Source: Candidatus Multivoradales bacterium
GTDB lineage: Bacteria; Acidobacteriota; Thermoanaerobaculia; Multivoradales; J023
Length of the DNA stretch: 64,000 nt
Assembly: GCA_965248925.1 (NCBI GenBank)
Contig: CBDFLE010000005.1
Span: forward strand, 128,001-192,000
Reading direction: 5' to 3'
Shown piece by piece: positions 8,830-25,984 of this stretch (its first letter is position 1; every line of letters begins with the position of its first letter). Made by a program: the position numbers and the translations under genes. The notes beneath the pieces are model-generated. The model searched no databases. It was not told where the DNA came from and saw only the letters and a list, made by a program, of their open reading frames with translations.

Positions 8830-8847
8830 GCGGCGACGGGATAAGAG

Positions 8848-11654: not shown

Positions 11655-11727
11655 GGCGATGCTAGGAGGCAGCAAGACGAGGCCACCGCGCCAGCTTGTT
11701 CTGCGGCGAGGACTGTGAGGCCCGCTG

Positions 11728-12639: not shown

Positions 12640-12697
12640 ACTACGGCGACCCTTGCACGGCTTGCCGGTTGGCCCCGGCAACAATCACAATGCGGGG

Positions 12698-12955
12698 CTA
12701 TTCGCCGTCCAAGGTCTCGGCGAGGCTGTTGGCGGTCAAGATCCGCTTGGCCCAGCGCCGGAGTTGTTTGCTGTTCGCTGCTTCGATGCGCCGCCGAGTG
12801 ACCTCGTCGACGTCACCGAATCGACTCTCGACAAGGTCGATCAGCAGTTGTGCCTGCCCCTGCTTCCTGCCCTTCGTCAGGCCTTGTTTGAGGCCCTGCT
12901 CACGCCCTTCTCGGAGCCACTGTGCAGGCCATTGTGCGACGGTTTCACGGAGCAT
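12698..12955 (-). CDS. Putative intragenic small protein (RpnS-like antitoxin, 85 aa) in frame within rpn copy 1
   Basis: AGGAGGT-acgcaac-ATG inside the gene, just before the C-terminal domain MLRETVAQW...LDGE. Confidence 0.65.
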   Translation of the reverse strand: MLRETVAQWPAQWLREGREQGLKQGLTKGRKQGQAQLLIDLVESRFGDVDEVTRRRIEAANSKQLRRWAKRILTANSLAETLDGE

Positions 12956-13672
12956 GTTGCGTACCTCCTGCAAATCTTCAAGCACCGGTATCTCGGCGTC
13001 TGGGTAGCGAGCTGGCAGCAAAGAGTGCTGCAAGAAAGCCAAGAACGTGCGACTCAGCCGCGGATCGGCTATGGCCTTCAACCTCTCGACCAATCTTAGC
13101 GCATGGCGCCGCAACTGTCCCGCGCCGCTGCTGCGCTCCAGGTCGAAGAGGATCGACGCCAGGTTGTCGCTGGCTGCCGACGGCGAGGCGCGATGCTCGT
13201 CGATCAGCAAGTAGCGCAGCCGTGGCCGATAGTCGACGCAGTCGTCCGGACCGGGGGTGATCAGCTCGGCGACATCGCTGGGCGCGGTCCATGGCCGACT
13301 GCCATTGTAGATCACCAGCGGCACCACCGGGGGCAGGGTCTCTCCCGGCTTGACCTGGCCGCCGCGGAGTAGCCCTTCGTAGAACAGGCCGAGATAGGTC
13401 ATCAAGCGAAGAGCCATCCAGGGCTCGTTGCGCGACTGGAACTCGAACAACAGGTAGATGTAGATCCACCCCAGGCGGTGGCGCAATCGCCACAGCAGGT
13501 CCTTCTCACGCCGTGCCAGGCGATCGGAGATTTCTACTTCGGGGGCTTTCTCCAGCGTCGAGAAGTCGAGCCCCTGGATCCAATCCCCGCCGCCATGGGC
13601 GCGCAGCAAGTCTTCCACCATCGGTCGGTGAGAGAAAAGCAGGCGGTATGCGCTGTCGTGTTTTTCTGCCAC
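12698..13672 (-). CDS. Rpn family recombination-promoting nuclease (YhgA/Transposase_31, PD-(D/E)XK), copy 1
   Basis: HDSAYRLLFS, REKDLLWR, YIYLLFEFQS, MALRLMTY, LPPVVPLVIYNG; GTG start after AGGAGG; DUF4351-like C-terminus. Confidence 0.88.
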   Translation of the reverse strand: MAEKHDSAYRLLFSHRPMVEDLLRAHGGGDWIQGLDFSTLEKAPEVEISDRLARREKDLLWRLRHRLGWIYIYLLFEFQSRNEPWMALRLMTYLGLFYEGLLRGGQVKPGETLPPVVPLVIYNGSRPWTAPSDVAELITPGPDDCVDYRPRLRYLLIDEHRASPSAASDNLASILFDLERSSGAGQLRRHALRLVERLKAIADPRLSRTFLAFLQHSLLPARYPDAEIPVLEDLQEVRNMLRETVAQWPAQWLREGREQGLKQGLTKGRKQGQAQLLIDLVESRFGDVDEVTRRRIEAANSKQLRRWAKRILTANSLAETLDGE

Positions 13673-13844
13673 TGTCCCTGACCTCCTTTGGTCAAGGACA
13701 TAGACGCAAAACGTTGGTGGAATCTTGCAGGGATCTTGCGACAGGGCGTCGGAGCCTGCTCTAATCGGCTCAGTGGGTGGACTCTTCTGAGCCATTCGAG
13801 AGGGGGCTGGCACCGGCCGAGAAGCAGCCAGCGGGAGGGTAGCT

Positions 13845-16800
13845 ATGCACAAGATCTTCATCAGCTATAGCCGAAGCTCAGCCAGTGACGTGGCCCAAGA
13901 CCTGGACAGGCAGCTAAGCGCCGAGGGTTGTGAAGTTTTTCTCGATACCAAGATGCCGCCCGGCGCGATCTGGCCGACTGCACTGAAGGCAGCGATCGAC
14001 GCCGCCGATGCCATGATCCTGCTGCTGAGCGACGGGGTCGAGAACAGTGACTTCGTCAAATGGGAGGTCGATCATGCCCGCGGCCGTATGGGCCAGGGTG
14101 CGGCCTTGAGTCTGATTCCCATCGAGGTCGACTTTCAGGGGCAACTGGACCCGCGCTTGAAGGCCAGGCTGGGGAGCATCCAGACCTGCTCGTGGGGTCG
14201 TCAGCAGGGCTTCGATGTGCTGCTCGACTTGATCCGCTCCGGCCTTGGCATTCCGGAGGTAGATGCGGTCGCCGAGACCTACCGGGCATGGACACTCGCC
14301 AACCCGCAGCCGGTGCGCTTGATCGGGCTTGGCCCCGACACCAATCTACCTCTGGAGTCGATCTACGTGCCGCTGCGGGTTTCGAGGTGCGAGCGCGATG
14401 GTTTGCATCAGTTGGCGGGTGGTGCGATGTCTGGCCGCGATGTTCTTGGCCGCGGTGCAGAGGAGTTACAGGTTGATTCTCTCTTCCGTGAGGGTGTCAG
14501 CGCCAGTCGGCATACCCTGCTGCTCGGCGAACCCGGCTCCGGCAAGACCACGGCATTGATAAAACTCTATGCTCTGTGCCTCGAGGCGGCCGTTGAGAAT
14601 CTCGGCCTGGCTGGTGGTACATTGCCGGTACCTGTGCGCTTGCGCCACTTGAGCGCCGATGATCTTGGCCGGCCGCTGGGGGAAACCCTTGATCGGGCCC
14701 TGGGCAAACGCTTCACCAAGCCGCCGCTGCCCAGCACCCTCGATCGTCTGTGGCGCGCCGGTCGTCCCTTGCTGCTACTGCTCGATGGTCTCGATGAGAT
14801 CACCGACGACGCCTTGCGGACCGAGGTGTGCGACTATCTGGCATGCCAGCTTGGGGAGGCCGCCGGCAGCAGCGTCCGGGCGGTAGTGACTTGCCGTCGG
14901 GCCTATTCGCGATCAGTAGAGCTGGGCGCAGATTTTTGCACCTTGGAAGTGCGACCGCTCGGACCCAAAGAGGCCGACGACCTAGTTAAGTTGTGGTTCC
15001 GGGCGGCCTCCCACACCATGCCCGACTACTCAGCCCAGCGTGCCCTACGGCGCTCCCAACAGCTGCGCCGGGCGCTGCAAGACAGCGTCAACGAAGGAGC
15101 CCAACTGCGGGTGATCGCTGGCTGGCCACTGATGCTGACCCTGCTCTGTGTGGTGATGGCGAAGCGTGGTGAGATACCGCGCCGACGGGTGGAGTTCTAT
15201 CAACGCTGTGTGCGGCTGTTACTCGAAGAGTGGGGGCCACTCCAGGAGCGCGGTCACAAGGCACCCATCACTACCGATCGAGCGTTGCAGGCCCTGCGCC
15301 CATTGGCCTATGAACTGCGTTCCAATCCTCGCGGTGAGTTGCGCCGGCTACAGGTCGTGCGCTACATCCAGCAGGCTTTGCCGCGGGGTGCGGCGCTGCC
15401 AAGCCGAGTGCTCGAGTGGCTGCGTTGCGAGGCCGGCGTGCTCGATGAGCTGGCGCCACATCGCTTTGGTTTTACCCATCTGGCGCTCGAGGAGTACCTT
15501 GCAGCCGAGCACATCGCCGAGCAGCCCGATGATCAGTTGCTGCTGGACCTCGTCGGCCGCTTCGACGGTGAGCGCTGGTACGAGGTCGCTCAGCTACTGG
15601 TGGCACTGCCCGGCCGCGGCATGTTTGCCCGTCTGATGGAACAGCTGCTCGATGGACCAGCTCTGCTACAACAGGCAGACCTATTGAGACTCTGCATTGA
15701 AGAGGCCGACGAGGTCGATGTAACTCCATTCCTCAAGCGCCTGGCCGACCCAAATCTCGATGCCACTCGCCAGGCCGCCCTATTGCGGCTGATGAGTGGC
15801 CAGCGGGATCCGCGCCTGCTAGAGCAGGCGCGGGCCCTGGCCAGTGGCGAGAATGTTGCGGTAGTCGCTCTCGCCGAACGCTTGATGAATTTGGCTGAGC
15901 AGGCGACTGATGGGTCGACCGAGCGATGCGTTTACCTGGTAGCCCACTCAGCTGATGCAGAACCAGCGGCGGAGGTGGCCAAGGCTCTGCGCCGCGGCGG
16001 CGTGCGGATCTACGAGGTACCGCCCGATGAGCTGTGGTTGGACCATTTCGACCGCATCTGCGAAAACTGTGGTGGCGGCGTCGTGGTGTTGGTCAGCGGC
16101 GGCGAGCCGCCGTGGAGAGACCCCGACGTGGCCGATTTCCTGGAGATTTTCTCCAACCTCGAAGGGCGTGCGCTAACCCTGGCCCGGTTGCCCGGCGCAC
16201 CGTCAGGTTGGGAGCGACTAGAAGACGCTTGGGCCGAGCGTTGCGGCCCGGTGGTCGATCTAACCATCGCCTGTGGCCCAGAGCAGGTCATCGCCCTCGT
16301 TGCCTCTCTGGCTGGCACCGGTCGGCGGGCGCCCGAGACTTCCGTCGGGAGCAGCGATTCAGAGTTCCGTGCCAGGGCCGTCCAGCGGCTCTTGGTGGAG
16401 CCGGTCACCGGCATGCGTTTCCTGTGGGTTGATGGTGGCGAGTTGCGCATGGGTACAGACGAGGAGAGCTGGCCAGGTTTCGAAGATGAATTCTTCGCTG
16501 CCGCCCGGCCGGCCCATGGGGTAGAAGTGTCAGGTTTCTGGCTGGCGGAGACGCCGATGACTAACCGGCAGTACAAGTTTTTCATGGAAGCAGATGAGTT
16601 CGAAGGCAAGCCGCCCGGGCGGTGGACGGATAGGCGCTTCTCAGCCGAAGATCAACCGGTGGTGGGGGTGAGTTGGAGCGCGGCGAGGAGCTGCGCCGCT
16701 TGGCTAGGGCGACAGCTGGGGCAGGGGCGCGATGCTGATCTACCTAGTGAAGCGCAGTGGGAGTGGGCGGCTCGGGGCAAGGATGGGCGAATCTATCCTT

Positions 16801-17174
16801 GGGGTGATGCCGAGCCCACCAGCGAGTTGGCTTGTTTCGGGCTTGACTGGCAGGAGGATCGGCCAGCATCGGTCGGCTCATATCCGGCAGGCCGGGGCCC
16901 CTTCGGTCATCTCGATGTGGCTGGTCTGGTTTGGGAGTGGTGCCTCGATCACTTCGATGGAGGCACTTACAGTCAGCGGTATGGGGCCCCGCCAGAGCGT
17001 GATCCGATTGTCTGGGGCAAGATTGAAAATACTGACGAGGTACGTGTCCTCCGGGGCGGCGGCTGGCCCGATCCCGCGCCGGACCTGCGCTCTGCGATCC
17101 GCTTCAGGTTCCCGGCCAGGAGCCGGTACTCGGTTATCGGCTTTCGTGTGGCCGTCTCTCCCCCGAGCCTTTGA
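13845..17174 (+). CDS. DGR target 1: NLR-like TIR - NACHT - TIR-like - FGE-sulfatase/C-type-lectin-fold protein
   Basis: KIFISYSRS...FVKWEV TIR; Walker A GEPGSGKT; Walker B LLLLDGLDE; FGE motifs LPSEAQWEWAARG, YPWG, GLVWEWC, RVLRGGGW, IGFRV; 3' end is VR1. Confidence 0.9.
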   Translation: MHKIFISYSRSSASDVAQDLDRQLSAEGCEVFLDTKMPPGAIWPTALKAAIDAADAMILLLSDGVENSDFVKWEVDHARGRMGQGAALSLIPIEVDFQGQLDPRLKARLGSIQTCSWGRQQGFDVLLDLIRSGLGIPEVDAVAETYRAWTLANPQPVRLIGLGPDTNLPLESIYVPLRVSRCERDGLHQLAGGAMSGRDVLGRGAEELQVDSLFREGVSASRHTLLLGEPGSGKTTALIKLYALCLEAAVENLGLAGGTLPVPVRLRHLSADDLGRPLGETLDRALGKRFTKPPLPSTLDRLWRAGRPLLLLLDGLDEITDDALRTEVCDYLACQLGEAAGSSVRAVVTCRRAYSRSVELGADFCTLEVRPLGPKEADDLVKLWFRAASHTMPDYSAQRALRRSQQLRRALQDSVNEGAQLRVIAGWPLMLTLLCVVMAKRGEIPRRRVEFYQRCVRLLLEEWGPLQERGHKAPITTDRALQALRPLAYELRSNPRGELRRLQVVRYIQQALPRGAALPSRVLEWLRCEAGVLDELAPHRFGFTHLALEEYLAAEHIAEQPDDQLLLDLVGRFDGERWYEVAQLLVALPGRGMFARLMEQLLDGPALLQQADLLRLCIEEADEVDVTPFLKRLADPNLDATRQAALLRLMSGQRDPRLLEQARALASGENVAVVALAERLMNLAEQATDGSTERCVYLVAHSADAEPAAEVAKALRRGGVRIYEVPPDELWLDHFDRICENCGGGVVVLVSGGEPPWRDPDVADFLEIFSNLEGRALTLARLPGAPSGWERLEDAWAERCGPVVDLTIACGPEQVIALVASLAGTGRRAPETSVGSSDSEFRARAVQRLLVEPVTGMRFLWVDGGELRMGTDEESWPGFEDEFFAAARPAHGVEVSGFWLAETPMTNRQYKFFMEADEFEGKPPGRWTDRRFSAEDQPVVGVSWSAARSCAAWLGRQLGQGRDADLPSEAQWEWAARGKDGRIYPWGDAEPTSELACFGLDWQEDRPASVGSYPAGRGPFGHLDVAGLVWEWCLDHFDGGTYSQRYGAPPERDPIVWGKIENTDEVRVLRGGGWPDPAPDLRSAIRFRFPARSRYSVIGFRVAVSPPSL
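17053..17168 (+). repeat. DGR variable repeat VR1
   Basis: 116 bp colinear with TR 18310-18425; 14 mismatches, all at TR adenines. Confidence 0.96.
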
Positions 17175-17204
17175 TTCTTGTTCATTGGGTGTCTTTTCTG
17201 CGGG

Positions 17205-17227
17205 GTCCAGGGGCAGAGCCCCTGGAC
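17205..17227 (+). promoter_or_regulatory. GC-rich hairpin/cruciform downstream of VR1 (DGR target-recognition element)
   Basis: GTCCAGGGGC-AGA-GCCCCTGGAC, perfect 10-bp stem with 3-nt loop; near-identical hairpin follows VR2. Confidence 0.85.
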
Positions 17228-17303
17228 TCATTTGAAGCGGGTTGTCGACATATCTGGCGAAGTTTGTCAAAGAACTCTGCCAAAGTTGTAAGCTCGTTGC
17301 TCT

Positions 17304-17900
17304 ATGAAGCTCTCCATTCGCGAGACGGCGACCGTCCTGGGCAAGAGCGAGCGCCAGGTGCGCTACATGATCCAGCAAGGTGGGCTGAAGGCAGTCAAAC
17401 ATGGCTCTAGGTGGCGCATCGACGCCGATCACCTGCCTCTGGACGAAGCCCAGCGTCGGGCGCTGGCGCGGCGCATCGACTCGGCTCGGCAAGCCTTCGA
17501 GAAGGGCCTGGCGCCGGCCGAGAAAGCGGTCGGTGAAAGGCGCAAGACCTACACCTTGAACAACCTGGTGGCGTTCGGCACGGGGGCAGAGATTTATCGC
17601 GAGATGCTCTCTTCGCTGGGCTTTGGCGATGTTGCATGCGGCCGGCTGCACGAAGCTCTGATGCTGGTGAGTCGGGGCTTTCACAGCTTCCACCCCAAGG
17701 AGAAGGCGGCCTGTTATTGCGCGGCGCGCTGCGCCGCCGCCACGGCGGTGGGGGAACTTCTCCTGCGGGCGGCTGATGGGGTGGAGCACGGTTGGGCCAG
17801 GCGCCTGGAGGAGGAACTCATTCCCAAAATCGCTGGCCTGGTCGCGGCCAATGAAAAGCGCTCTCGTCGGCACCGCTTCGGCCGTCGCGACGAACTCTGA
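17304..17900 (+). CDS. DGR-associated protein: excisionase/MerR-like HTH fused to four-helix-bundle (IVP/Avd-like) domain
   Basis: LSIRETATVLGKSERQVRYMIQQGGLKAVKHGSRWRI HTH; C-terminal helical domain (LNNLVAF...SRGFHS...EKAACYCAAR). Confidence 0.7.
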   Translation: MKLSIRETATVLGKSERQVRYMIQQGGLKAVKHGSRWRIDADHLPLDEAQRRALARRIDSARQAFEKGLAPAEKAVGERRKTYTLNNLVAFGTGAEIYREMLSSLGFGDVACGRLHEALMLVSRGFHSFHPKEKAACYCAARCAAATAVGELLLRAADGVEHGWARRLEEELIPKIAGLVAANEKRSRRHRFGRRDEL

Positions 17901-17907
17901 GTGCTGC

Positions 17908-18246
17908 ATGGAGCACGCCCCTCTGCTCCGCTCTACCATGGGTCTGTGCGCAGATCTGTTGGAGAGCCTTGAAGCAATTTCCGGCTCGACTCCCCTGCGT
18001 CGCCACCTGGCCGAGGTGGTGCTGCGGTTGCTCGACCACGTGACCTTGGCTGTCGAGCGCCACGACCGGCTCGAAAGCCTGCGCGAGGCCGATGCGGCGC
18101 TAGCGGTGTTGCGGGTTCATCTGACCCTTGCGCTCGAGCTTGAGCTGCTCGATGAGGAAGCCTTCATCGAGCTTGTGGAGCAGGCCGATGGGATTGGACG
18201 GCAGATCGGCGGCTGGTTGCGCCAGCTCGGGCGGTACAGCGAATGA
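17908..18246 (+). CDS. avd: DGR accessory variability determinant Avd (four-helix bundle, 112 aa)
   Basis: L..AD..L..LR..L.LA.EL and IGRQIGGWL ending; immediately upstream of TR and RT. Confidence 0.85.
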   Translation: MEHAPLLRSTMGLCADLLESLEAISGSTPLRRHLAEVVLRLLDHVTLAVERHDRLESLREADAALAVLRVHLTLALELELLDEEAFIELVEQADGIGRQIGGWLRQLGRYSE

Positions 18247-18309
18247 GCGGCGGTGCGGTAAGCTGCGGCGGGCAGACCCGATATCCCGTTTTTGCTTTTG
18301 ATCTGCTCT

Positions 18310-18425
18310 GGGGCGGCGGCTGGAACAATCCCGCGCAGAACCTGCGCTCTGCGATCCGCAACAGGAACCCGGCCAGGAACCGGAACTCGAATATCGGCTT
18401 TCGTGTGGCCGTCTCTCCCCCGAAC
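18310..18425 (+). ncRNA. DGR template repeat (TR)
   Basis: AAC/AAT-rich copy (9 Asn codons, 23 A) of both VRs, located between avd and RT. Confidence 0.96.
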
Positions 18426-18552
18426 ACGCTGACCGCGAGGCACCGTGCAGGGTCTTGTCCTGATGTCTATCGAGGCGTCGAATATCTTGAGCCGGCCCGT
18501 TCTGGTAGGTCCGAAAAGGCCGAAGGTCCGGGTCGGCAACTATGAGTTGCCG

Positions 18553-19554
18553 ATGAGGCGTTGGGGCAACCTCTTCGCCGCAGTCGCCGCTCCGCTATTT
18601 CTGTGGAGGGCCTGGCGACGGTTCCGGCGCGGCAAGCGCAAGCGGCCCTCTGTGCTTGCCTTTGAGCAGCGCGCGGAGCGCGAGGTGTTGCTGTTGGCAC
18701 GGCAGCTCGATGCTGCTACTTATTGCCCTGGGCAGTTCCGCAAGCTCCTGCTACGGGAGCCCAAGCGGCGCTTGATCGCCGCCGCGCCAGTGCGTGACCG
18801 GGTAGTGCATCACGCGATCCACGGTGCCTTGGCGCCGCTTCTCGACCGAGGCCTTGTCGACTCGACCTTCGCCTGCCTGGAGGGCCGAGGTAGCCATCGC
18901 GCGGTGCTGGCCTGTTGGCAGAGCATGCGGCGTTGGCGCTATGTGCTGGCGCTCGACATTCGGCACTACTTTCTCAGCATCGACCGCGGGATTCTCTTGC
19001 ACGAGGTGATGGCACGGCGGATCAAGGACTGGCGGCTGCTGGAACTGCTCCGCACGGTGGCCGGGAGCGGCGCCGGGCTCTACCGCGGCCGCCAAGTCGT
19101 CGAGTTACTGCAACTGCCAGCAGGCTTTCCTCCCATCGGGTGCGGCTTGCCGATTGGCAACCTCACCAGTCAGTGGTGGGGTAATCACTACTTGTCGGGC
19201 CTCGATCACTACATCAAGCGGCAGCTGAAGGTGCCGGGCTACCAGCGCTACATGGACGATCTGACCCTCTTCGCCGACTCGCGTTCTCAGCTCCTGGAGG
19301 CACGGCAGGCGATCGCAGAATGGTTGCTTTGGCATCGCAAATTACTCCTCAAGCGGCCGGCCGCTGAGCCTCGTTCGACCCGCCGGCCGCTGAGCTATCT
19401 CGGCTACCGGGTGGGGCGCGGTGGAGTGGCGCCGCTCCGAGGGGTCCTGCAACGCCTGGAGAGGCGGGTGGCTGAGCGTCTGCACAGCGGTGATGCCGAG
19501 GCGGTGGAGAGGACTCTCGCGGCTTACAAAGGGGTGGTCACTTTTGTCGGTTGA
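18553..19554 (+). CDS. DGR reverse transcriptase (333 aa)
   Basis: EPKRRLIAAAPVRDRVVHHAI, LDIRHYFLSID, GLPIGNLTSQ, QRYMDD, YLGY; no maturase or endonuclease domain. Confidence 0.95.
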   Translation: MRRWGNLFAAVAAPLFLWRAWRRFRRGKRKRPSVLAFEQRAEREVLLLARQLDAATYCPGQFRKLLLREPKRRLIAAAPVRDRVVHHAIHGALAPLLDRGLVDSTFACLEGRGSHRAVLACWQSMRRWRYVLALDIRHYFLSIDRGILLHEVMARRIKDWRLLELLRTVAGSGAGLYRGRQVVELLQLPAGFPPIGCGLPIGNLTSQWWGNHYLSGLDHYIKRQLKVPGYQRYMDDLTLFADSRSQLLEARQAIAEWLLWHRKLLLKRPAAEPRSTRRPLSYLGYRVGRGGVAPLRGVLQRLERRVAERLHSGDAEAVERTLAAYKGVVTFVG

Positions 19555-19650
19555 AGATGACAATAGACTAATTATCGGAACTTATGTCGACAACAGATCG
19601 GTATTTGTCTACAACAAGCAGGGAGATGCTGAACTTGTTGACAAAAAGGG

Positions 19651-22600
19651 TCAAATTTCGTCCAAGAACACCGCCAGGGGCTCCGCCCCTGGACCCCGAA
19701 TGCACCGGAACAAGGCAGACAATGAGCAAGAATCAAAGGCTCGGGGGAGAGACGGCCACACGAAAGCCGATATTCGAGTTCCGGCTCCTGGCCGGGAGCC
19801 GGCGCGGATCGCAGAGCGCAGGCTCCGCGCGGGACTGCCCCAGCCGCCGCCCCGGAGGAACCTGGCATCACCCTCCTTCAGGTCAGGAAAGATCTCCCTG
19901 TACGCATCGTCCTTCTCGAACTCCCGAAGGTCGGGGTGGTCGCTATCGAGGCACCACTCCCACACGTTGCCGGCCAGGTCCAGGTGCCCATAGGGCCCGG
20001 CACCGGCCGGGTAGGCGCCTACGGGTGTGGGGTGTTCTTGGTGGTTGGCGAAGTTGGCCAGCTCGGGTGTGGGCTTGTCTTTCCCCCACGGGTAGTCACC
20101 TTTCGGTGCATCGGCTGCGGCTAGCCATTCGGCGCTGGTGGGCAGGTGGACCTGCTCGTGGCGCTGCTTGGCCAGCCAGGCGCAGTAGGCCATGGCCTCG
20201 AACCAGGACACGCCCACCACGGGTCGGTTGGGGGTGGTCAGCTGTGCCTGCCAGTTCTCGGGGGAGGTCCACTTCTCCTGCTGGCGTCGCTCCCAGCCAT
20301 CGTCGTCCCACCAGCGGCGGGATTCGTAGCCGCGCTCCTGGTCGACGAACACCAGATATTCATCCACCGTCACCGGATAGCGGCCCAGGCGCAGCCCCTC
20401 GACCGCAGAGACCGGTGGCCAGTCGGGGCGCCGCAGGCGTGGATCGCCGGCTCGGCCCAGGGCCGCCGCAACTTCGAGTCGCTTCTTGATGCCGATCTTG
20501 GCGGCGCCAGCCTTGGTGAAGATCTTGAGTGAGCGCTTCAGGGCCCGCTTGTATTCAGCGGTGACCGCCGACGGAGGCTGGTAGCCATAGGCTTTCACCG
20601 GCTCCAACATGGCACCGACCGCGGCCGCTACGCGGGCATCAGCGGCCAGGCTGGTGTCGTCGCCGCGAAGTGCCAGCAGTCTCCCGAGTAAACGGTCCAC
20701 CCGCCGGTCGCCGCCGCTGTCGAGCAGAGTGCCGGGGAGGATGGCCAGAGTCTCGCGCCATTGTGGATCTTCCAGGTGCTGCTCAACGATCGGCCACCAG
20801 TCGTCCTCGGGATTCTCGCTGCCATCGCCGAGCGAGGCGAGCTGCTTGGCTGCCAGAGCTTCCTGGAAAGTTAGATGCCAGAAACGCAGGTTGCGGCCGG
20901 CGAGTTCTTCGATAATGCCGCTGCTCGCGCACTCGAACTCCAGCCATCGCTTGGCCAGCTGGCGGCGGTCGGCGGTGGCCTTCAGCGCGGTGTAGAAGCG
21001 AAGCACCACCGGTTCGATGGCCAGCGCCGCGTCCTCGAGGCCGATCAATGACAGCTTGCCTCCCTCCTGATCCATCATCCGTAGTGCCAGCGCAGCCAAG
21101 GCGCTCCAGGCGAAGTGTTCCGTGAATCCTGCTGCCTTGCGCTGCTTGGCCCGCGCTTGGAGCAGCCAACGCAGCACCGCTGAGTAGACTCGCGAACGCC
21201 CTTCGGGTAGCTCTTGCTCGTTCCAGTGAATGACGCATAGGCAGGTCAGCATCACCGGGTTGGCGGCCAGGCGGCGTACTCGCGGGACGTCGATCATGGC
21301 GGAGCGCAGGGTCTCTTGGTAGCGCCTGACTTCACCGCTCAGCTGGGTGTGGATATCTAGACCGTGAAGAGCCTCTACCCACAGCTTCAGGAAGCGCCCG
21401 ATCTGGCCATCGTCGAAGGGCTGAATCTTGGCCACGGTGAAGCCCATGGCGAGGAGTTCGGCGGTCTGCACAGGACGACTGGCGACGGTGATCGGCCCCG
21501 GCCACTGAGCGGCGGCATCGGCCAGAACATCGAGCAAGCGGTGGCGCAGGCTCTGCTCGCCGACTTCGTCGAGACCATCGAGCAGAAGCCAGGCATCGCC
21601 CGCTTCGAGCAGCTGGCGCCAGGCTTGTCGCTGGCAATTGGCCGGGTTGGCGCGGGCGCTGGCGATCAGCAGGTCGAGCAGCCGGTCGCGGTCGTCACGG
21701 TGTCCGGGGGTGTCAGCCTGAGCGGTAAGGAGCTTCGCCAGCTGTGCGAAGCGTAGATAGATCGGTACTTTGGCTGGCTGGTCGGCGGGCAGAGCGAGAA
21801 AGTGCTGCCGCCAAGTGTTCCCACCAGGGCCCCGCAGGCCATGGCCGTCGCGGGCCAGCAGGGTGGCGGTGAGGCGCAAGAAGGTGGTCTTGCCGGCGCC
21901 AGGTTGGCCTTCGATCAGCAGCCGCGGGTGAGCGGCCAGCTGGTCTGCGAGGGGTTCGCCACCGGCACGCTCGAAATGCAGCAGTGCTACCTCCTGGTCC
22001 CGCTCGCTGGCCGTGGATCGGCTGAGCAGTGGGGTGTAGAGCTTCTCGATAGGACGAAGAATGGCCTTGCGGGCTTGGCCAGCTCGCGAGGCGATGCCGC
22101 GGATTTTGAGCAGGCCAAGGTCGGCGATGACCCCGTCGAGATAGCAAGGCAGATCGAGCCTGGGCGCGGGGCTCGGGCGGCGCCGTGAGCCGCGGGAAGA
22201 CTCGCTCGCACGGATTTCCACGCCAGCAGCACCTGGATCGGCGCCGAAGGTTGAGTTGTGCAGCAGCCGCATCTCGCCGCCGACCTGCGGCGTGCGCACT
22301 CGTGGCCAGATCCGCACTGCACCGTCCTCATCGATCTCCCCCCAGGTGTAACCCACCCGGCGTTCCTCTTGCTTGGAGCCGTAGTGCTCGAGACCGAAGA
22401 GCGACGGGGATTGGCAGGCGAGGCGTCCGCCGATGTCGCGCTCAATACCGGGCTGGTGCAGGTGGCCGTACAGGCATAGGGCAAATCTGTCGGGCGGACA
22501 GATACTGGCCTGAAACTCAGCACGGGCGGCTGGGGAGAACCAACCGGGCGGTTGGTGGAACATCAGCAGCGCCTGGGCGCAGTCGTCCAGCACGCTCAGC

Positions 22601-23274
22601 GGCGAGCTGCTGTTGGGTGGTGCCAGTGCGTGGTGGAGCTGCTCGACGGAGATCTCCAGGCGGTTAGCGAACTCGTCATCTGTCCTATTCTGCCGATACT
22701 GGCGCCAGGTGCTGTTGAGACCCACAACTGTCAGGGGAAATCCTGTGGGCGACACGGTGACTCGCAAGTCACCAAGGAAGTGCGAGAGGTGGAGCTCAGC
22801 CCATTTCGTGCTCACCACTGCCGGCACTAACCGCCGCTCTAGCCAGGCCAGGTACTCGGTGAAGAGAGGCTGCAGGAAGTCGGCATTGGGTTGCGACCCC
22901 CAGAGTTCGTCGTGCAAGCTGCGGAATGCCGGGCCATCATCATCCAACACTGAGAACTTGTAGACGGCGGTAGGCCTGGCGAGGTCGTGATTGCCTGGTA
23001 CCGGTACCACCAGCGGCCGGTCGCCGAAGGGTGCTAGCCAGCTGGTGACCTGATCGAGGAAAGCGTCAACCAGTTTGAACTGCTTCTGCTGGCCGGAGAA
23101 GCTGAGATCGCCGCTGAACAGCAGCAGATGAGGCGGGCCGAGCTGCTCGGCCATTGCGATCAGGTCGGCTTGTAGCTCGTGCTGAGCCTGCCACCAGTGC
23201 TCGCCACCGCGGCAGCCTGCGTGTAGATCTGAGAAGTGCAGCCAACGCACTGGCCGCGGTCGAGATCGGGGCAT
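19651..23274 (-). CDS. DGR target 2: NLR-like metallophosphoesterase - NACHT - FGE/CLec protein; frameshifted in VR2 (stop would be at 19733 without the deletion)
   Basis: WLHFSDLH, SGDL, PGNHD, GHLH calcineurin-like motifs; GQPGAGKT; LLLDGLDE; LAGNVWEWC, FLRGGGW; GGAGG RBS. Confidence 0.9.
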   Translation of the reverse strand: MPRSRPRPVRWLHFSDLHAGCRGGEHWWQAQHELQADLIAMAEQLGPPHLLLFSGDLSFSGQQKQFKLVDAFLDQVTSWLAPFGDRPLVVPVPGNHDLARPTAVYKFSVLDDDGPAFRSLHDELWGSQPNADFLQPLFTEYLAWLERRLVPAVVSTKWAELHLSHFLGDLRVTVSPTGFPLTVVGLNSTWRQYRQNRTDDEFANRLEISVEQLHHALAPPNSSSPLSVLDDCAQALLMFHQPPGWFSPAARAEFQASICPPDRFALCLYGHLHQPGIERDIGGRLACQSPSLFGLEHYGSKQEERRVGYTWGEIDEDGAVRIWPRVRTPQVGGEMRLLHNSTFGADPGAAGVEIRASESSRGSRRRPSPAPRLDLPCYLDGVIADLGLLKIRGIASRAGQARKAILRPIEKLYTPLLSRSTASERDQEVALLHFERAGGEPLADQLAAHPRLLIEGQPGAGKTTFLRLTATLLARDGHGLRGPGGNTWRQHFLALPADQPAKVPIYLRFAQLAKLLTAQADTPGHRDDRDRLLDLLIASARANPANCQRQAWRQLLEAGDAWLLLDGLDEVGEQSLRHRLLDVLADAAAQWPGPITVASRPVQTAELLAMGFTVAKIQPFDDGQIGRFLKLWVEALHGLDIHTQLSGEVRRYQETLRSAMIDVPRVRRLAANPVMLTCLCVIHWNEQELPEGRSRVYSAVLRWLLQARAKQRKAAGFTEHFAWSALAALALRMMDQEGGKLSLIGLEDAALAIEPVVLRFYTALKATADRRQLAKRWLEFECASSGIIEELAGRNLRFWHLTFQEALAAKQLASLGDGSENPEDDWWPIVEQHLEDPQWRETLAILPGTLLDSGGDRRVDRLLGRLLALRGDDTSLAADARVAAAVGAMLEPVKAYGYQPPSAVTAEYKRALKRSLKIFTKAGAAKIGIKKRLEVAAALGRAGDPRLRRPDWPPVSAVEGLRLGRYPVTVDEYLVFVDQERGYESRRWWDDDGWERRQQEKWTSPENWQAQLTTPNRPVVGVSWFEAMAYCAWLAKQRHEQVHLPTSAEWLAAADAPKGDYPWGKDKPTPELANFANHQEHPTPVGAYPAGAGPYGHLDLAGNVWEWCLDSDHPDLREFEKDDAYREIFPDLKEGDARFLRGGGWGSPARSLRSAIRAGSRPGAGTRISAFVWPSLPRAFDSCSLSALFRCIRGPGAEPLAVFLDEI
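19674..19692 (-). promoter_or_regulatory. GC-rich hairpin/cruciform downstream of VR2
   Basis: Minus strand CCAGGGGC-GGA-GCCCCTGG, 8-bp stem with 3-nt loop. Confidence 0.85.
19739..19853 (-). repeat. DGR variable repeat VR2 (carries a 1-nt deletion)
   Basis: 115 bp vs 116-bp TR; 11 substitutions plus 1 deletion, all at TR adenines. Confidence 0.95.
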
Positions 23275-23325
23275 ATTCTTGTTCCTCCCAGTGGATCAGA
23301 GAGGATTGTAGCCGATCAAGTCTTG

Positions 23326-23571
23326 CTATTCGCCGTCCAAGGTCTCGGCCAAGCTCGTGGCGGTCAAGATTCGTCTGGCCCAGCGCCTGAGCTGTCCGCT
23401 GTCCGCGGCCGCGATGCGCCGCCGAGAGACTTCGTCGACGTCACCGAAGCGGCTCTCGATGAGATCGATCAACAGTTGCGACTGCCCTTGCTTCAAGCCT
23501 TGCTTGAGTCCCTGCTCACGCCCTTCTCGGAGCCACTGTGCAGGCCATTGTGCGACGGTTTCGCGGAGCAT
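23326..23571 (-). CDS. Putative intragenic RpnS-like small protein (81 aa) in rpn copy 2
   Basis: AGGAGGT-acgaaac-ATG internal in-frame start, conserved with copy 1. Confidence 0.65.
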   Translation of the reverse strand: MLRETVAQWPAQWLREGREQGLKQGLKQGQSQLLIDLIESRFGDVDEVSRRRIAAADSGQLRRWARRILTATSLAETLDGE

Positions 23572-24288
23572 GTTTCGTACCTCCTGCAAATCTGTGAGCG
23601 CCGGTATCTCGGCGTCTGGGTAGCGAGCTGGCAGCAAAGAGTGCTGCAAGAAAGCCAAGAACGTGCGACTCAGCCGCGGATCGGCTATGGCCTTCAACCT
23701 CTCGACCAATCTTAGCGCATGGCGCCGCAACTGTCCCGCGCCGCTGCTGCGCTCTAGATCGAAGAGGATCGACGCCAGGTTGCCGCGGGTTGGCGACGGT
23801 GAGGCGCGGTGTTCGTCGATTAGCAGGTAGCGCAGCCGTGGCCGATAGTCGTCGCAGCCATCTGGACCTGGAGTGATTAGCTCGGCGACATCGGTGGGCG
23901 CGGTCCAGGGTCGACTGCCATTGTAGATCACCAGCGGTACCACCGGAGGCAGAGTCTCTCCTCGCTTGATCTGGCCGGCGCGGAGTAGCCCTTCGTAGAA
24001 GAGGCCGAGATAGGTCATCAAGCGAAGAGCCATCCAGGGCTCGTTGCGCGACTGGAACTCGAACAACAGGTAGATGTAGATCCACCCCAGGCGGTGGCGC
24101 AATCGCCAAACCAGGTCTTTCTCGCGCCGTGTCAGGCGATCGGAGATTTCTACTTCGGGGGCTTTCTCCAGGGTGGAGAAGTCGAGCCCCTGGATCCAAT
24201 CCCCGCCGCCATAGGCGCGCAGCAGGTCTTCCACCATCGGTCGGTGGGAGAAAAGCAGGCGATATGCGCTGTCGTGTTTTTCTGCCAC
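23326..24288 (-). CDS. Rpn family recombination-promoting nuclease, copy 2
   Basis: Near-identical paralog of 12698-13672; GTG start after AGGAGG. Confidence 0.88.
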   Translation of the reverse strand: MAEKHDSAYRLLFSHRPMVEDLLRAYGGGDWIQGLDFSTLEKAPEVEISDRLTRREKDLVWRLRHRLGWIYIYLLFEFQSRNEPWMALRLMTYLGLFYEGLLRAGQIKRGETLPPVVPLVIYNGSRPWTAPTDVAELITPGPDGCDDYRPRLRYLLIDEHRASPSPTRGNLASILFDLERSSGAGQLRRHALRLVERLKAIADPRLSRTFLAFLQHSLLPARYPDAEIPALTDLQEVRNMLRETVAQWPAQWLREGREQGLKQGLKQGQSQLLIDLIESRFGDVDEVSRRRIAAADSGQLRRWARRILTATSLAETLDGE

Positions 24289-24385
24289 TGTCCATGACCT
24301 CCTTTGGTCATGAACAGGGACGGAAAACTGTGACGGGATCTTGCGGGAGATCGGCGACAGGGCGTCAGAGCCTGCTCTACTCGGC

Positions 24386-24865
24386 TCAGTTGGCGGTCTT
24401 TTTCGGCCCGTCGCCGCCGCTTTTTGCCTCGCTCGCCGCCGCGTCGCCAAACACTTCGCGGGCTTTGTTCTTGAGCCGCTGCTGCGCGGCCTCGACTTCG
24501 CGTAGGGCGTCGCGTAGTTGCTCGAGTTCGTCGGCGCGGACCTCCAGACCTTCGCGGATAAACAGAGCAGCAGCCTCGGAACGGCTCTTGACGGCGCCGA
24601 TCGCCACCCAATCGTCGAGTCGCTTCAGAGTATCTCCGTCGACCCGCACCATCACCACCTGATCGCGCTGTTTCTTGCCCATCTTCTCGACGCTGTCTTT
24701 GAGGTCGGGGGAGACACAGACTACTTTTACCCTGGCACCTTCGCCGAGGTCGAAGCCGAGGTCGAGGTCGGCGAGGTCGTGCTCTAAGTCGATGCCGTGA
24801 TGGGAGAGACGTTCCGAGATGCGTTGCAGGATGCTGCCGAGGTCGAAGTGAATCTTGTTGGCCAT
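24386..24865 (-). CDS. Ribbon-helix-helix (CopG-like) domain protein with coiled coil
   Basis: VVMVRVDGDTLKRLDDWVAIGAVKSRSEAAALFIREGL; AAGGAG RBS. Confidence 0.7.
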   Translation of the reverse strand: MANKIHFDLGSILQRISERLSHHGIDLEHDLADLDLGFDLGEGARVKVVCVSPDLKDSVEKMGKKQRDQVVMVRVDGDTLKRLDDWVAIGAVKSRSEAAALFIREGLEVRADELEQLRDALREVEAAQQRLKNKAREVFGDAAASEAKSGGDGPKKTAN

Positions 24866-24894
24866 TTGAGTCTCCTTAATTTCGTCTTTACCGT

Positions 24895-24918
24895 ATCACT
24901 GTAATTATATTACGTGAT
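24895..24918. promoter_or_regulatory. Imperfect palindrome upstream of the RHH gene, candidate operator
   Basis: ATCAC-T-GTAAT-TAT-ATTAC-GTGAT in an AT-rich intergenic region. Confidence 0.45.
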
Positions 24919-24971
24919 CCTCTCAAGGATGTTTCCTTTTTCTTTTGAGCTCCGGTCGGAGCCAATTCTGC

Positions 24972-25006
24972 TTGAGTGATCGAATCGAGTTAGCTAGAAT
25001 AGCTAA
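24972..25006 (+). promoter_or_regulatory. Sigma70-type promoter with overlapping palindromic operator of the TA operon
   Basis: TTGAGT-17 bp-TAGAAT; TTAGCTA-GAA-TAGCTAA (24990-25006) ends directly at the ATG. Confidence 0.7.
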
Positions 25007-25755: not shown

Positions 25756-25984
25756 CCTGGCCTGGCCAAATCTGGGCTGATGTTAGATCTGTGCAGACAA
25801 TGGTCAAGCCTGTACGTTGATTGCTCCTGGCAGGTTTGGAGTGCTCACTTCACCCATTGATGTTGATCTAGATAACCTCCTTTGAGACAGTGCTTTACGT
25901 CAGCACTCAGACTCCACTTAAGGGCTTGGCATAAGCCTCGCTATGGCTCTTTCTCCTGAACGACCTAATTCCAGGAGATTGATC

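What the first reader, a model, noticed from the sequence alone, without database searches (positions are those of the whole stretch)
13845..23274. One DGR diversifies the sensor domains of two NLR-like (NACHT) proteins that carry different effectors
Seen: a single avd-TR-RT core lies between two convergent ~1100-1200 aa genes, and both 3' ends are TR copies differing only at adenines. Target 1 is TIR-NACHT-TIR-like-FGE/CLec. Target 2 is calcineurin-like phosphoesterase-NACHT-FGE/CLec. Established: effector-NACHT-sensor is the NLR/STAND architecture; bacterial NACHT proteins and TIR NADases act in antiphage defence; DGRs mutate CLec-fold binding pockets. DGR-targeted NLR-like proteins have been reported in some multicellular bacteria, so the concept is not wholly new. 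Inference: this is a self-contained, hypermutating innate-immune receptor cassette in which one template produces up to 4^21 core DNA variants for two different outputs. The paired, convergent, Rpn-flanked layout may be undescribed.
Basis: partly seen in the sequence, partly recalled or inferred. Interest (0 to 1): 0.95.

Follow-up and report, generated by a model that had tools for sequence, protein, structure and literature searches.

The report
Hypermutating retroelement serving two NLR-like sensors
A bacterial mutagenic retroelement rewrites the ligand-binding tips of two neighbouring immune-receptor-like proteins, one of which is at present knocked out of frame; cassettes of this kind have already been described in multicellular bacteria, so this is a good new example rather than a new principle.

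Summary
A complete diversity-generating retroelement (DGR: HTH accessory, Avd, TR, RT) lies between two convergent NACHT/STAND genes whose FGE-type C-lectin ends are copies of one template repeat. In the 114-nt core, 24 of 24 differences fall on template adenines and 0 of 184 non-adenine positions differ.

The correction concerns VR2. It is 1 nt shorter than the TR because an adenine of an AAC codon is missing. Target 2 (metallophosphoesterase-NACHT-FGE) is therefore frameshifted and loses the conserved GFRVA end. Contigs from four runs of one sample show the same deletion. Target 1 (TIR-NACHT-TIR-like-FGE) is intact.

Fold searches match FGE enzymes, the DGR target TvpA, and NOD2/NLRP3. The RT's nearest relatives are DGR RTs, including BPP-1 brt.

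Doré et al. [quoted passage not shown] Wu et al. 2018 (PMC5758913) describe frameshifting indels next to AAC.

Modestly new points: the two targets belong to two distinct chassis lineages that recur as a pair in related cassettes, effectors are swapped on both, and related cassettes have often lost the DGR core. The Rpn flanks are not a general feature.

Verdict: new member of a known kind.

The parts
12698..13861 (-). RpnA: Transposase_31 / Rpn-type PD-(D/E)XK gene, left flank, divergent from target 1
   Evidence: Pfam PF04754 E 1.7e-22. Nucleotides 12697-13786 are 90% identical to 23325-24402. These are the only two copies in the genome.
13845..17174 (+). Target 1, 1109 aa, intact: TIR - NACHT module - helical region - TIR-like domain - FGE/C-lectin sensor
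   Evidence: ORF. Pfam. AF2 model mean pLDDT 84.5, pTM 0.73. Foldseek matches to FGE, TvpA, NOD2 and NLRP3.
13854..14192 (+). Target 1 N-terminal TIR domain (res 4-116)
   Evidence: PF13676 E 2.6e-18. PADLOC TIR models. Weak SARM1 TIR match, E 0.018. Candidate catalytic Glu74 identified by eye only.
14514..15005 (+). Target 1 NACHT NTPase (res 224-387)
   Evidence: PF05729 E 6.7e-10. Walker A GEPGSGKT at 228. Walker B LLLLDGLDE at about residues 310-318; D314, L316 and E318 invariant in 41 sequences.
15927..16310 (+). Target 1 internal TIR-like alpha/beta domain (res 695-822)
   Evidence: Five beta-alpha units in the model. The best Foldseek hits are TIR domains: RRS1 4c6t, E 3e-4, TM 0.67-0.70. 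Pfam TIR_2 hits the equivalent domain of the G010 homologue at E 3.5e-6. No Pfam hit in target 1 itself.
16419..17153 (+). Target 1 FGE-sulfatase / C-lectin-fold sensor domain (res 859-1103)
   Evidence: PF03781 E 3.2e-40, profile positions 5-254 of 255. Foldseek: ToxD, PvdO, FGE, and TvpA 2y3c at E 1.3e-11.
17053..17166 (+). VR1, in frame
   Evidence: 13 differences from the TR, all at TR adenines. They fall in 9 of the 13 codons that carry a TR adenine, within residues 1075-1098.
17203..17229 (+). GC-rich hairpin downstream of VR1 (12-bp stem, 3-nt loop). It follows a 29-nt flank shared with VR2 but not with the TR.
   Evidence: Fold z-score -2.25. Flank alignment.
17304..17900 (+). HTH_17 accessory protein, 198 aa
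   Evidence: PF12728 E 3.1e-9. Homologues or remnants sit beside the RT in L020, L021, L022, L023, L025, L038 and L052.
17908..18246 (+). Avd accessory protein, 112 aa
   Evidence: PF22296 bAvd 41.9 bits, cut-off 40. NF033474 45 bits, below its cut-off of 80.
18310..18423 (+). Template repeat (TR): 21 mutable adenines, 8 AAY codons, A-free 3' end
18445..19554 (+). DGR reverse transcriptase, 369-aa ORF (an ATG lies at 18463)
   Evidence: RVT_1. 8ub7_A E 1e-34. BPP-1 brt E 8e-22. IGNLTSQ and YMDD motifs read by eye in the sequence.
19651..23274 (-). Target 2, frameshifted allele: metallophosphoesterase (22450-23244) - NACHT (21385-21921) - FGE (19792-20406, truncated)
   Evidence: Pfam: the FGE match stops at profile position 240 of 255. 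Metal-binding motifs DxH, GD, GNHD and GHxH, and Walker A GQPGAGKT, read by eye. The conserved GFRVA end is lost, whereas T1 and 10 of 10 homologues keep G-F-R (9 of 10 the full GFR[VL]A).
19741..19853 (-). VR2, 113 nt. One TR adenine is missing within 19794-19806. The in-frame stop would be 19733-19735.
   Evidence: The other frame encodes RLPARSRNSNIGFRVAVSPPSL*. Contigs of 4 runs cover 19755-20100 with 0 differences.
19674..19692 (-). GC-rich hairpin downstream of VR2 (8-bp stem)
   Evidence: Fold z-score only -0.43.
23326..24450 (-). RpnB: second Transposase_31 gene, 51 nt upstream of and co-directional with target 2
   Evidence: PF04754 E 5.1e-22. 89% amino-acid identity to RpnA.

Best explanation
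This is a complete chromosomal diversity-generating retroelement (DGR) that serves two convergent, cytoplasmic NLR-like (STAND/NACHT) proteins.

Diversification:
- Shown by sequence: one 114-nt template repeat has been copied, with adenine-specific errors, into the last roughly 40 codons of both targets' FGE-type C-lectin domains.
- Inferred mechanism: the RT-Avd complex, with a lineage-specific HTH accessory protein, reverse-transcribes TR RNA and misincorporates opposite adenine. The cDNA then replaces the VR, guided by the A-free 3' homology, the shared flank and the GC hairpin.
- This resamples about 1.5e12 protein variants at 13 codons.

Output (inferred from the families):
- The variable lectin surface binds an intracellular ligand, such as a phage or other invader protein.
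- Binding releases NACHT oligomerisation.
- Oligomerisation switches on the N-terminal effector: a TIR NADase in target 1 and a calcineurin-like metallophosphoesterase in target 2. The result is growth arrest or death of the infected cell.

Present state:
- Target 1 is intact.
- Target 2 is an OFF allele. A 1-nt deletion at a TR AAC codon most likely arose by RT slippage during a retrohoming event. It removes the last strands of the sensor domain.
- Because the TR and RT are intact, a later retrohoming event could overwrite the deletion.

The two targets are not recent duplicates. They belong to two chassis lineages that occur together around DGRs in related genomes, with the N-terminal effectors exchanged freely.
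For: DGR:
- 24 of 24 TR/VR differences are at adenines and 0 of 184 non-A positions differ.
- AAY codon design with no stop reachable.
- Avd.
- RT nearest to 8ub7_A at E 1e-34 and to BPP-1 brt at E 8e-22.
- Shared post-VR flank and hairpins.
- No other copy of this TR in the 7.98-Mb genome.

NLR-like targets:
- Pfam domains.
- Walker A and B motifs and phosphoesterase motifs.
- AF2 model pLDDT 84.5, matching FGE/TvpA and NOD2/NLRP3.
- No transmembrane segment.

Frameshift:
-, reproduced in contigs of 4 runs.
- The position next to AAC fits Wu et al. 2018, where 25 of 372 DGRs have indels, 11 of them frameshifting, and 74% of the indels lie next to AAC (passages read).

Family context:
- The 65 best target 2 homologues all carry Metallophos + FGE (63 of them also NACHT) at 42-49% identity.
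- At least 10 other clusters are TIR-NACHT-FGE.
- In a quick ML tree of 31 chassis, the T1-type and T2-type clades each have SH-aLRT 99. The pairs in G000, G010:C433 and L021 each hold one of each type.
- Effector swaps.

Literature: Doré 2024 and Kaur 2020 propose the same sensor role.
Against: - No activity was observed. The only public runs are contigs of one sample. They show a single sequence at each VR, and contigs drop rare variants.
- No defence, NADase or phosphoesterase activity has been tested.
- The TIR catalytic Glu was identified by eye only; the tool alignment to SARM1 stops at residue 65.
- One of the two receptors is broken.
- Related cassettes have often lost the DGR core: RT or HTH remnants only in G010:C433, G021:C6, G009:C35 and G009:C59. 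This locus may therefore also be on the way to decay.
- The RT was not placed in a reference phylogeny (Roux/Doré clades).
- The VR2 hairpin is not better than shuffled sequence.
Confidence: 0.7

Rival explanations
1. The cassette is a decaying relic. The DGR last acted some time ago, target 2 is a pseudogene, and the locus is following its relatives towards loss of the RT core, leaving 'frozen' receptors.
For: - Target 2 is frameshifted.
- No 100%-identical entry for target 2 appeared among its 120 listed hits, whereas target 1 found itself.
- A single sequence per VR in the contigs.
- Four related cassettes keep only RT or HTH remnants.
- Doré 2024 also report 'degenerate' loci.
Against: - The RT (369 aa), Avd, HTH protein and TR are all open and complete.
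- 0 of 184 non-adenine positions have drifted between the TR and the two VRs.
- The deletion itself lies at a TR adenine, as expected of an RT error rather than random decay.
Confidence: 0.2
2. The hypervariable receptors do not defend against phages. They serve another conflict or social function, such as kin or non-self recognition, sensing of toxins delivered by neighbours, or regulated cell death during multicellular development.
For: - RT and target relatives carry names of Myxococcota-type MAGs and Haliangium/Nannocystis.
- Doré 2024 link this DGR lineage to multicellular bacteria, 128 of 156 described species.
- No phage or defence-island genes were seen next to the cassette. Neighbours are a peptidase, a PD40 protein, a Phd/YefM pair and a VIT-vWA protein.
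Against: - TIR and NACHT modules of this build are, where tested, antiphage. This comes from literature cited in Doré 2024, not from any test here.
- NCBIfam and PADLOC give weak partial hits to antiphage TIR and phosphoesterase models.
- The proteins lack export signals, so any ligand must be intracellular.
Confidence: 0.2
3. The 1-nt deletion in VR2 is a sequencing or assembly error, and target 2 is really intact.
For: All evidence comes from one sample. The four runs are not independent and may be the data the genome was built from.
Against: - The same 3785-nt contig with 0 differences across 19755-20100 was assembled separately from each of 4 runs, at word depth 6.5-15.
- The context (CGCGCCGGCTCCC) is not a long homopolymer.
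Confidence: 0.08

Closest known systems
Clade 5D cellular DGRs with two STAND-NTPase/CLec targets (Thiohalocapsa sp. PB-PSB1 DGR 3 and DGR 6; Doré et al. 2024, PMC10907252; abstract, sections 6 and 7, and passages read)
   Same: - One RT/TR serves two targets with a central NACHT or nSTAND1 and a C-terminal CLec/FGE VR.
- Some relatives have N-terminal TIR or peptidase effectors.
- Several DGRs per genome.
- Degenerate sister loci.
- Mobile elements at the loci.
- A proposed antigen-sensor role.
   Different: - Here the two targets carry two different enzymatic effectors (TIR and metallophosphoesterase) fused directly to them.
- They belong to two distinct chassis lineages rather than being duplicates.
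- An HTH_17 accessory gene is present.
- The RT was not placed in the clade 5 tree.
- The paper's supplementary figures S10/S11, which could not be opened, may already show such pairs.
Bordetella phage BPP-1 DGR (brt, avd, TR, mtd)
   Same: - RT homologous to brt: E 8e-22, 29.8% identity.
- Avd, adenine-specific TR-to-VR transfer, a VR at the 3' end of a C-lectin-fold gene, and a GC hairpin after the VR.
   Different: - Chromosomal rather than phage-borne.
- Two targets.
- The targets are intracellular NTPase switches, not a tail-fibre receptor-binding protein.
- An extra HTH accessory protein.
Treponema denticola TvpA (PDB 2y3c), an FGE-type DGR variable protein
   Same: The modelled C-terminal domain of target 1 matches it: E 1.3e-11, TM 0.69 on the target.
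   Different: TvpA is a surface lipoprotein without NTPase or effector domains (recalled).
Antiviral STAND proteins (Avs, bNACHT) and eukaryotic NLRs
   Same: - Effector-NTPase-sensor order.
- The model matches NOD2 (E 3.4e-13) and NLRP3.
- FGE-sulfatase sensors on STANDs are noted in a 2026 preprint (10.64898/2026.01.04.697583; one figure-legend passage read).
   Different: - The sensor is a hypermutated lectin domain rather than TPR, LRR or WD40 repeats.
- No member with this sensor has been tested, as stated in Doré 2024.
FGS-domain/DGR-linked NTP-dependent conflict systems (Kaur, Burroughs, Iyer, Aravind 2020, PMC7159879; passages read)
   Same: FGE ('FGS') domains always sit C-terminal to variable effector and NTPase modules, are diversified by DGRs, and occur in multicellular bacteria. 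TIR and calcineurin-type phosphoesterases are among the effectors.
   Different: Those passages concern mainly vWA-MoxR ternary systems. That is the build of this genome's second DGR (L020), not of the cassette in the window.
VR indels next to AAC (Wu et al. 2018, PMC5758913; passages read)
   Same: [quoted passage not shown]
   Different: None of substance; this is another instance.

Membership tests
Diversity-generating retroelement | TR/VR pair whose differences are confined to template adenines | tested here: met
   24 of 24 differences at TR adenines and 0 of 184 non-A positions, for two VRs.
Diversity-generating retroelement | Reverse transcriptase of the DGR type | tested here: met
   Best solved relative 8ub7_A at E 1e-34, against 1.4e-14 for a group II intron RT and 4.8e-5 for a retron-type RT. 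BPP-1 'brt' hit at E 8e-22. IGNLTSQ and YMDD motifs read by eye. No reference phylogeny was built. That 8ub7 is the Bordetella phage RT is recalled, not shown by a call (one search found no paper).
Diversity-generating retroelement | Accessory protein (Avd) | tested here: met
   PF22296 41.9 bits, cut-off 40. The NCBIfam Avd model scores 45 bits, below its cut-off of 80. No PDB sequence match.
Diversity-generating retroelement | IMH-like constant 3' end and GC-rich inverted repeat after the VR | tested here: inconclusive
   An A-free 3' homology and a 29-nt flank are shared by both VRs only. The hairpin after VR1 has z -2.25; the one after VR2 has z -0.43.
Diversity-generating retroelement | Ongoing diversification in a population | tested here: inconclusive
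   Only contigs of one sample were available, and no variant contig was seen at either VR. Raw reads were not available.
Clade 5D DGRs of Doré et al. 2024 | RT falls in clade 5D of the Roux/Doré RT tree | not tested
   Reference RT sequences and the supplementary datasets were not available. Only the architecture matches.
STAND / NACHT NLR-like NTPases | NACHT P-loop NTPase with Walker A and B, followed by helical and winged-helix modules | tested here: met
   PF05729 in both targets. GxxGxGKT and hhhhDGLDE motifs. G228, G231, G233, K234, T235, D314 and E318 are invariant in 41 sequences. Foldseek matches NOD2 at 3.4e-13 and NLRP3.
STAND / NACHT NLR-like NTPases | Tripartite effector-NTPase-sensor order | tested here: met
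   Target 1 has an extra TIR-like domain before the sensor.
Antiphage defence system | Protection against phage | not testable with these tools
   Only weak partial hits to antiphage models, all far below cut-offs.
TIR NADase | TIR fold with a catalytic glutamate | tested here: inconclusive
   PF13676 E 2.6e-18. Glu74 in the motif VKWE was identified by eye. The SARM1 alignment ends at residue 65.
Calcineurin-like metallophosphoesterase | Metal-binding motifs DxH, GD, GNH(D/E), H, GHxH | tested here: met
   PF00149 E 2.1e-8 over profile positions 3-191 of 191. SDLH(15-18), SGDL(54-57), GNHD(94-97) and GHLH(270-273) read by eye in the sequence. No PDB sequence match.
FGE-sulfatase / C-type-lectin-fold DGR variable domain | FGE fold with the VR at its C-terminal end | tested here: met
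   Target 1: PF03781 over positions 5-254 of 255, and Foldseek to FGE and TvpA. Target 2: the fold is present but cut at profile position 240 by the frameshift.
Rpn / YhgA-like (Transposase_31) | PF04754 domain | tested here: met
   80.4 and 78.9 bits, cut-off 21. NCBIfam RpnA and Rpn subfamily models score far below their cut-offs, so these are family members, not RpnA orthologues.

The most novel reading that the evidence does not exclude
The T1-type and T2-type receptors may be an obligate heterotypic pair, kept together around a DGR across genomes (G000, G010:C433, L021, and in pieces G021:C6). One template-coded repertoire would be wired to two different death effectors, so that a phage inhibitor of one output does not blind the cell. 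RT slippage at AAC codons would provide a reversible on/off switch for each receptor (DGR-driven phase variation) that limits autoimmunity from self-reactive variants. The internal non-catalytic TIR-like domain of the T1 type, whose best structural match is the RRS1 TIR of a plant paired NLR, could be the pairing surface.
Probability: 0.12. Interest if true: 0.7.

Novelty: new member of a known kind. Interest (0 to 1): 0.4.

Why it matters
DGR-diversified NLR-like proteins are the closest thing known in bacteria to a somatically diversified antigen receptor, and none has been tested experimentally.

This locus is a compact, complete candidate of about 9.4 kb: all DGR parts are open, one target is intact, and there are two enzymatic outputs that can be assayed.

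It also offers a natural example of a DGR-inflicted frameshift and a conserved pairing of two receptor lineages.

It does not change the concept, which is in print (Doré 2024; Kaur 2020).

Tried and rejected
- **RNA genes:** Rfam at gathering threshold on 11000-27000 found no family, and ARAGORN found no tRNA or tmRNA in the window. There is no sign of integration at an RNA gene.
- **Composition:** the cassette (62-67% GC) is not set apart from its surroundings.
- **Promoters and terminators:** the scan gave counts at the shuffle level and was uninformative.
- **Sequencing runs:** no RNA holder was listed. All four holders are contigs of one sample, so neither expression nor minor VR variants could be judged. 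A low-depth contig in X1 with one base left out at 17160 was not pursued.
- **Pfam on linker pieces:** at E up to 1, nothing was found for the inter-domain pieces of T1 and T2 or for the C-terminal half of the HTH protein.
- **PDB sequence searches:** Avd gave nothing significant. The T2 N-terminus gave nothing relevant. The T1 TIR gave only a weak SARM1 match.
- **Paper searches:**
  - '8UB7': 0 papers.
  - 'diversity-generating retroelement' + 'recombination-promoting nuclease': 0 papers.
  - DGR + STAND + TIR + defense from 2022 on: no primary study beyond Doré 2024.
- **Close copy or empty site in 30 related genomes:** no match above 85% identity outside G000, and no contig holds both flanks. 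G000 is the only member of its genus searched.
- **Rpn as part of the system:** rejected as a general rule.
  - No Rpn homologue in L020-L025 or L036-L038.
  - Of 82 contigs with Rpn hits in 14 other genomes, only G009:C35 also has a listed DNA match to the cassette (31 matches of that call were not listed, so this is a rough count).
- **Tree:** the careful search did not finish, so the quick tree (SH-aLRT only) is reported. Three ORFs without a Walker A motif were dropped. The broken T2-like pieces and the 598-aa SEFIR-FGE protein of G021 were not included.
- **L021:** no TR was found by blastn at E 1e-6, so it counts as a paired layout, not as a proven active DGR.
- **Locus 3:** this genome's third DGR locus was not checked for adenine specificity.

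Full report
**What is there**

The window is G000:C5:128001-192000 of a 7.98-Mb, 62% GC genome in 6 contigs. The gene order between 12.7 and 24.5 kb is:

| Element | Coordinates | Strand |
|---|---|---|
| RpnA | 12698-13861 | - |
| Target 1 | 13845-17174 | +, 1109 aa |
| HTH_17 protein | 17304-17900 | + |
| Avd | 17908-18246 | + |
| TR | 18310-18423 | + |
| RT | 18445-19554 | + |
| Target 2 | 19651-23274 | -, 1207-aa ORF |
| RpnB | 23326-24450 | - |

Repeat finding recovers the TR/VR1 direct repeat. It recovers the TR/VR2 inverted repeat in two blocks, whose spacing differs by one base.

**Check of the repeat**

- The core TR is 114 nt long and has 22 adenines. The last one sits at the constant 3' edge, which leaves 21 mutable.
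- VR1 differs at 13 positions. VR2 differs at 11 (10 substitutions and 1 deletion). All 24 differences are at TR adenines.
- None of the 92 non-adenine positions differs in either VR.
- The adenines sit in 13 codons, 8 of them AAY. No stop codon can arise. The space is 4.4e12 DNA variants and about 1.5e12 protein variants per target.
- Both VRs share a T-to-C difference at 18309, which marks the 5' edge of homology.
- Downstream of the homology, both VRs share a 29-nt flank that the TR lacks. A GC hairpin follows. The one after VR1 has a 12-bp stem and z -2.25. The one after VR2 has 8 bp and is no better than shuffled sequence.
- No further copy of this TR exists in the genome.

**The correction: VR2 is frameshifted**

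- VR2 lacks one adenine of the TR stretch CGC-AAC-AGG.
- Upstream of that point the target 2 frame is the FGE frame (...FLRGGGWGSPARSLRSAIR). Downstream it is out of frame for about 50 residues and reads through the hairpin to 19651.
- The other frame encodes RLPARSRNSNIGFRVAVSPPSL and a stop at 19733-19735.
- Target 1 and 10 of 10 aligned homologues keep the conserved G-F-R of the GFR[VL]A motif near the end (9 of the 10 the full motif; P0169 ends GFRVCC), and the target 2 ORF does not.
- The target 2 Pfam FGE match stops at profile position 240 of 255, whereas target 1 reaches 254.
- An in-frame product would be 1180 aa, within the 1145-1195 aa range of most of its homologues.
- Contigs assembled separately from each of four public runs cover 19755-20100 with no difference. 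All four runs come from one sample and one study. The deletion is therefore not a quirk of one assembler, but the evidence is not independent of the source sample.
- No variant contigs were seen at either VR. Contigs cannot show rare variants.
- Wu et al. 2018 (passages read) report TR/VR length differences in 25 of 372 DGRs, 11 of them frameshifting, with 74% of the indels next to AAC. They attribute these to RT slippage. This case fits that description.

**The DGR core**

- The RT's best solved relative is 8ub7_A at E 1e-34, against 1.4e-14 for a group II intron RT and 4.8e-5 for a retron-type RT.
- Among phage genomes it hits 125 records. These include Bordetella phage BPP-1 'brt' at E 8e-22 and other phage RTs.
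- Avd passes Pfam's cut-off narrowly but not NCBIfam's.
- The HTH_17 protein is a lineage-specific accessory. Homologues or remnants lie beside the RT in L020, L021, L022, L023, L025, L038 and L052. In L021 it is fused to a PDDEXK_3 domain.

**The targets**

Target 1:
- TIR_2 (4-116), NACHT (224-387) and FGE-sulfatase (859-1103).
- An AF2 model built on 41 sequences has mean pLDDT 84.5 and pTM 0.73.
- Foldseek matches its C-terminus to ToxD, PvdO, formylglycine-generating enzymes and the DGR target TvpA (2y3c, E 1.3e-11). It matches its centre to NOD2 (E 3.4e-13) and NLRP3.
- Residues 695-822 form five beta-alpha units. A sub-model (pLDDT 73) finds TIR domains first (RRS1 4c6t, E 3e-4, TM 0.67-0.70, then BtTir, BtpA and AbTir). 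Flavodoxin- and CheY-like folds follow closely.
- Pfam TIR_2 hits the equivalent domain of the G010 homologue at E 3.5e-6.
I see no conserved glutamate in this domain (by eye).

Target 2:
- Metallophos (11-275) with all metal-binding motifs present by eye, NACHT (452-630), and the truncated FGE domain.

Neither protein has a hydrophobic segment that suggests export.

**Relatives**

- Homologue counts:
  - The 65 best-scoring homologues of target 2 (of 225 found, 120 listed) all carry Metallophos + FGE at 42-49% identity, and 63 of them also NACHT. Named sources include Magnetococcales, Thermoanaerobaculia and Acidobacteriota MAGs.
  - Target 1 has 116 other homologues. At least 10 are TIR-NACHT-FGE.
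- Effector swaps:
  - Others carry PF13289 (SIR2_2, name recalled), Metallophos, kinase + Metallophos (Haliangium ochraceum), DUF4062 or CHAT on the same chassis.
- Chassis lineages:
  - A quick ML tree of 31 NACHT-to-FGE chassis splits them into a T1-type and a T2-type clade, each with SH-aLRT 99. N-terminal effectors are mixed within both clades.
  - In each of the three complete pairs examined (G000, G010:C433, L021), one partner is T1-type and the other T2-type (rows dropped are listed under Tried and rejected).
  - By tblastn, G021:C6 holds an intact TIR-NACHT-FGE T1-like gene (the only G021 row in the tree, where it falls in the T1-type clade) facing Metallophos and T2-like pieces in different frames.
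  - The two targets are thus not duplicates: 38% identity in FGE and 23% in NACHT. They are a recurring heterotypic pair.
- Decay of the DGR core:
  - An RT remnant of 58 aa in G010:C433.
  - An HTH remnant in G021:C6.
  - An RT remnant of 93 aa in G009:C35.
  - An HTH remnant in G009:C59.
  - G017:C692 keeps an RT of 64% identity at a contig end.

**Other DGRs in the genome**

- A second DGR at C6:4814719-4817372 has two convergent VRs with adenine-only differences. It has the ternary-system build: a TIR protein, a MoxR-like AAA protein, a 946-aa target, HTH, Avd, RT, a short TM-FGE target, and a CHAT protease nearby.
- A third DGR at C6:1659719-1665168 has two co-directional targets. Adenine specificity was not checked there.
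- Several DGRs per genome and two targets per DGR match Doré et al. 2024.

**The Rpn flanks**

- The two genes are 89% identical at the protein level and are the only copies in G000.
- The shared DNA (12697-13786 and 23325-24402, 90% identity) is coding sequence only.
- They are direct repeats, so recombination between them could excise the cassette. That is inference.
- The family is multi-copy in 13 of 18 same-family genomes, and copies often sit at contig ends.
- None is present in nine related cassette loci.
- One further case exists: in G009:C35 an Rpn gene lies upstream of, and on the same strand as, a T1-type target next to an RT remnant.
- I read the Rpn genes as mobile or recombination genes that travel near these loci. 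This parallels 'Transposons shape the evolution of ... DGR loci' in Doré 2024 (section 7 read). I do not read them as a component of the system.

**Mechanism, and what is shown versus inferred**

- Shown by sequence:
  - Adenine-specific transfer of one template into two genes.
  - An intact DGR core.
  - NLR-like build and folds.
  - The frameshift at an AAC codon.
- Inferred from families:
  - RT-Avd mutagenic retrohoming.
  - Ligand binding by the variable lectin surface.
  - NACHT oligomerisation.
  - TIR NADase and phosphoesterase outputs.
  - Abortive infection.
- Not shown:
  - Any current activity.
  - Expression.
  - A ligand.
  - Defence.

**Novelty**

- The concept, the two-target STAND-CLec layout, TIR effectors, Metallophos and NACHT domains in DGR targets, degenerate loci and transposon involvement are all in Doré 2024.
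- FGE-DGR conflict systems are in Kaur 2020.
- AAC-linked frameshifts are in Wu 2018.
- In the passages I read, and in my searches, I did not find the following points described:
  - that the two targets belong to two conserved chassis lineages;
  - that the pair carries two different fused enzymatic effectors.
- The supplementary figures that could settle this were closed.
- I therefore file this as a new member of a known kind, with interest of about 0.4.

Noticed in passing
G000:C6:4806000-4825999 (L020), DGR at L020:5984-12312: A second DGR in the same genome, with two convergent VRs that differ from their TR only at adenines. It sits in a ternary-type conflict locus: a TIR protein (830 aa), a MoxR-like AAA_5 ATPase, a 946-aa FGE target, HTH, Avd, RT, a short TM-FGE target (347 aa), a CHAT protease and a BTRD1-repeat protein.
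   Followed up: partly
G000:C6:1659719-1665168: A third RT locus, all on the minus strand: 913-aa target, RT, TR (1660772-1660900), 302-aa target. The VR-like repeats are 86-91% identical to the TR. Adenine specificity was not checked.
   Followed up: partly
L036 (G010:C433:7252-14606), L038 (G021:C6), L051 (G009:C35), L052 (G009:C59): Related NACHT-FGE pairs whose DGR core has shrunk to a remnant (RT pieces of 58 and 93 aa, HTH pieces of 76-93 aa). In effect these are 'frozen' receptors. In G010 both partners carry DUF4062 in place of TIR or Metallophos.
   Followed up: partly
L051 (G009:C35), Rpn at locus 13317-14312 (-): An Rpn homologue (36% identity) lies just upstream of, and on the same strand as, a T1-type target next to an RT remnant. 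It is one of only two Rpn copies found in that genome, and the arrangement echoes RpnB-target 2 here.
   Followed up: partly
window 24386-24865 (-): A 159-aa ORF with no Pfam family. It is 76-80% identical at the DNA level over about 260 nt in at least seven same-family genomes, with variation at third codon positions. It is a conserved unknown protein bordering the cassette.
   Followed up: partly
window 25007-25755 (+): A Phd/YefM antitoxin gene (99 aa) overlapping a 150-aa ORF without a Pfam hit. This is probably a toxin-antitoxin pair just right of RpnB.
   Followed up: no
window 25943-28111 (+): A VIT + vWA protein of 722 aa.
   Followed up: no
window 7483-9933 (+): Two adjacent T2SSE/PilT-like secretion ATPases (448 and 361 aa), followed by an M49-like peptidase and a PD40-repeat protein.
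   Followed up: no
L021:8846-9742 (+): In the closest RT relative (50% identity), the HTH accessory protein is fused to a PDDEXK_3 nuclease-family domain, and no Avd or TR was found.
   Followed up: partly
window 17134-17190: In run X1, a 56-nt contig at depth 3.5 lacks one base at 17160, in the C5 run at the constant end of VR1. This could be an error or a minor variant.
   Followed up: no
window 13845-13861: The annotated starts of RpnA (-) and target 1 (+) overlap by 17 nt. Homology between RpnA and RpnB ends at 13786, so the real RpnA start is probably further in.
   Followed up: no
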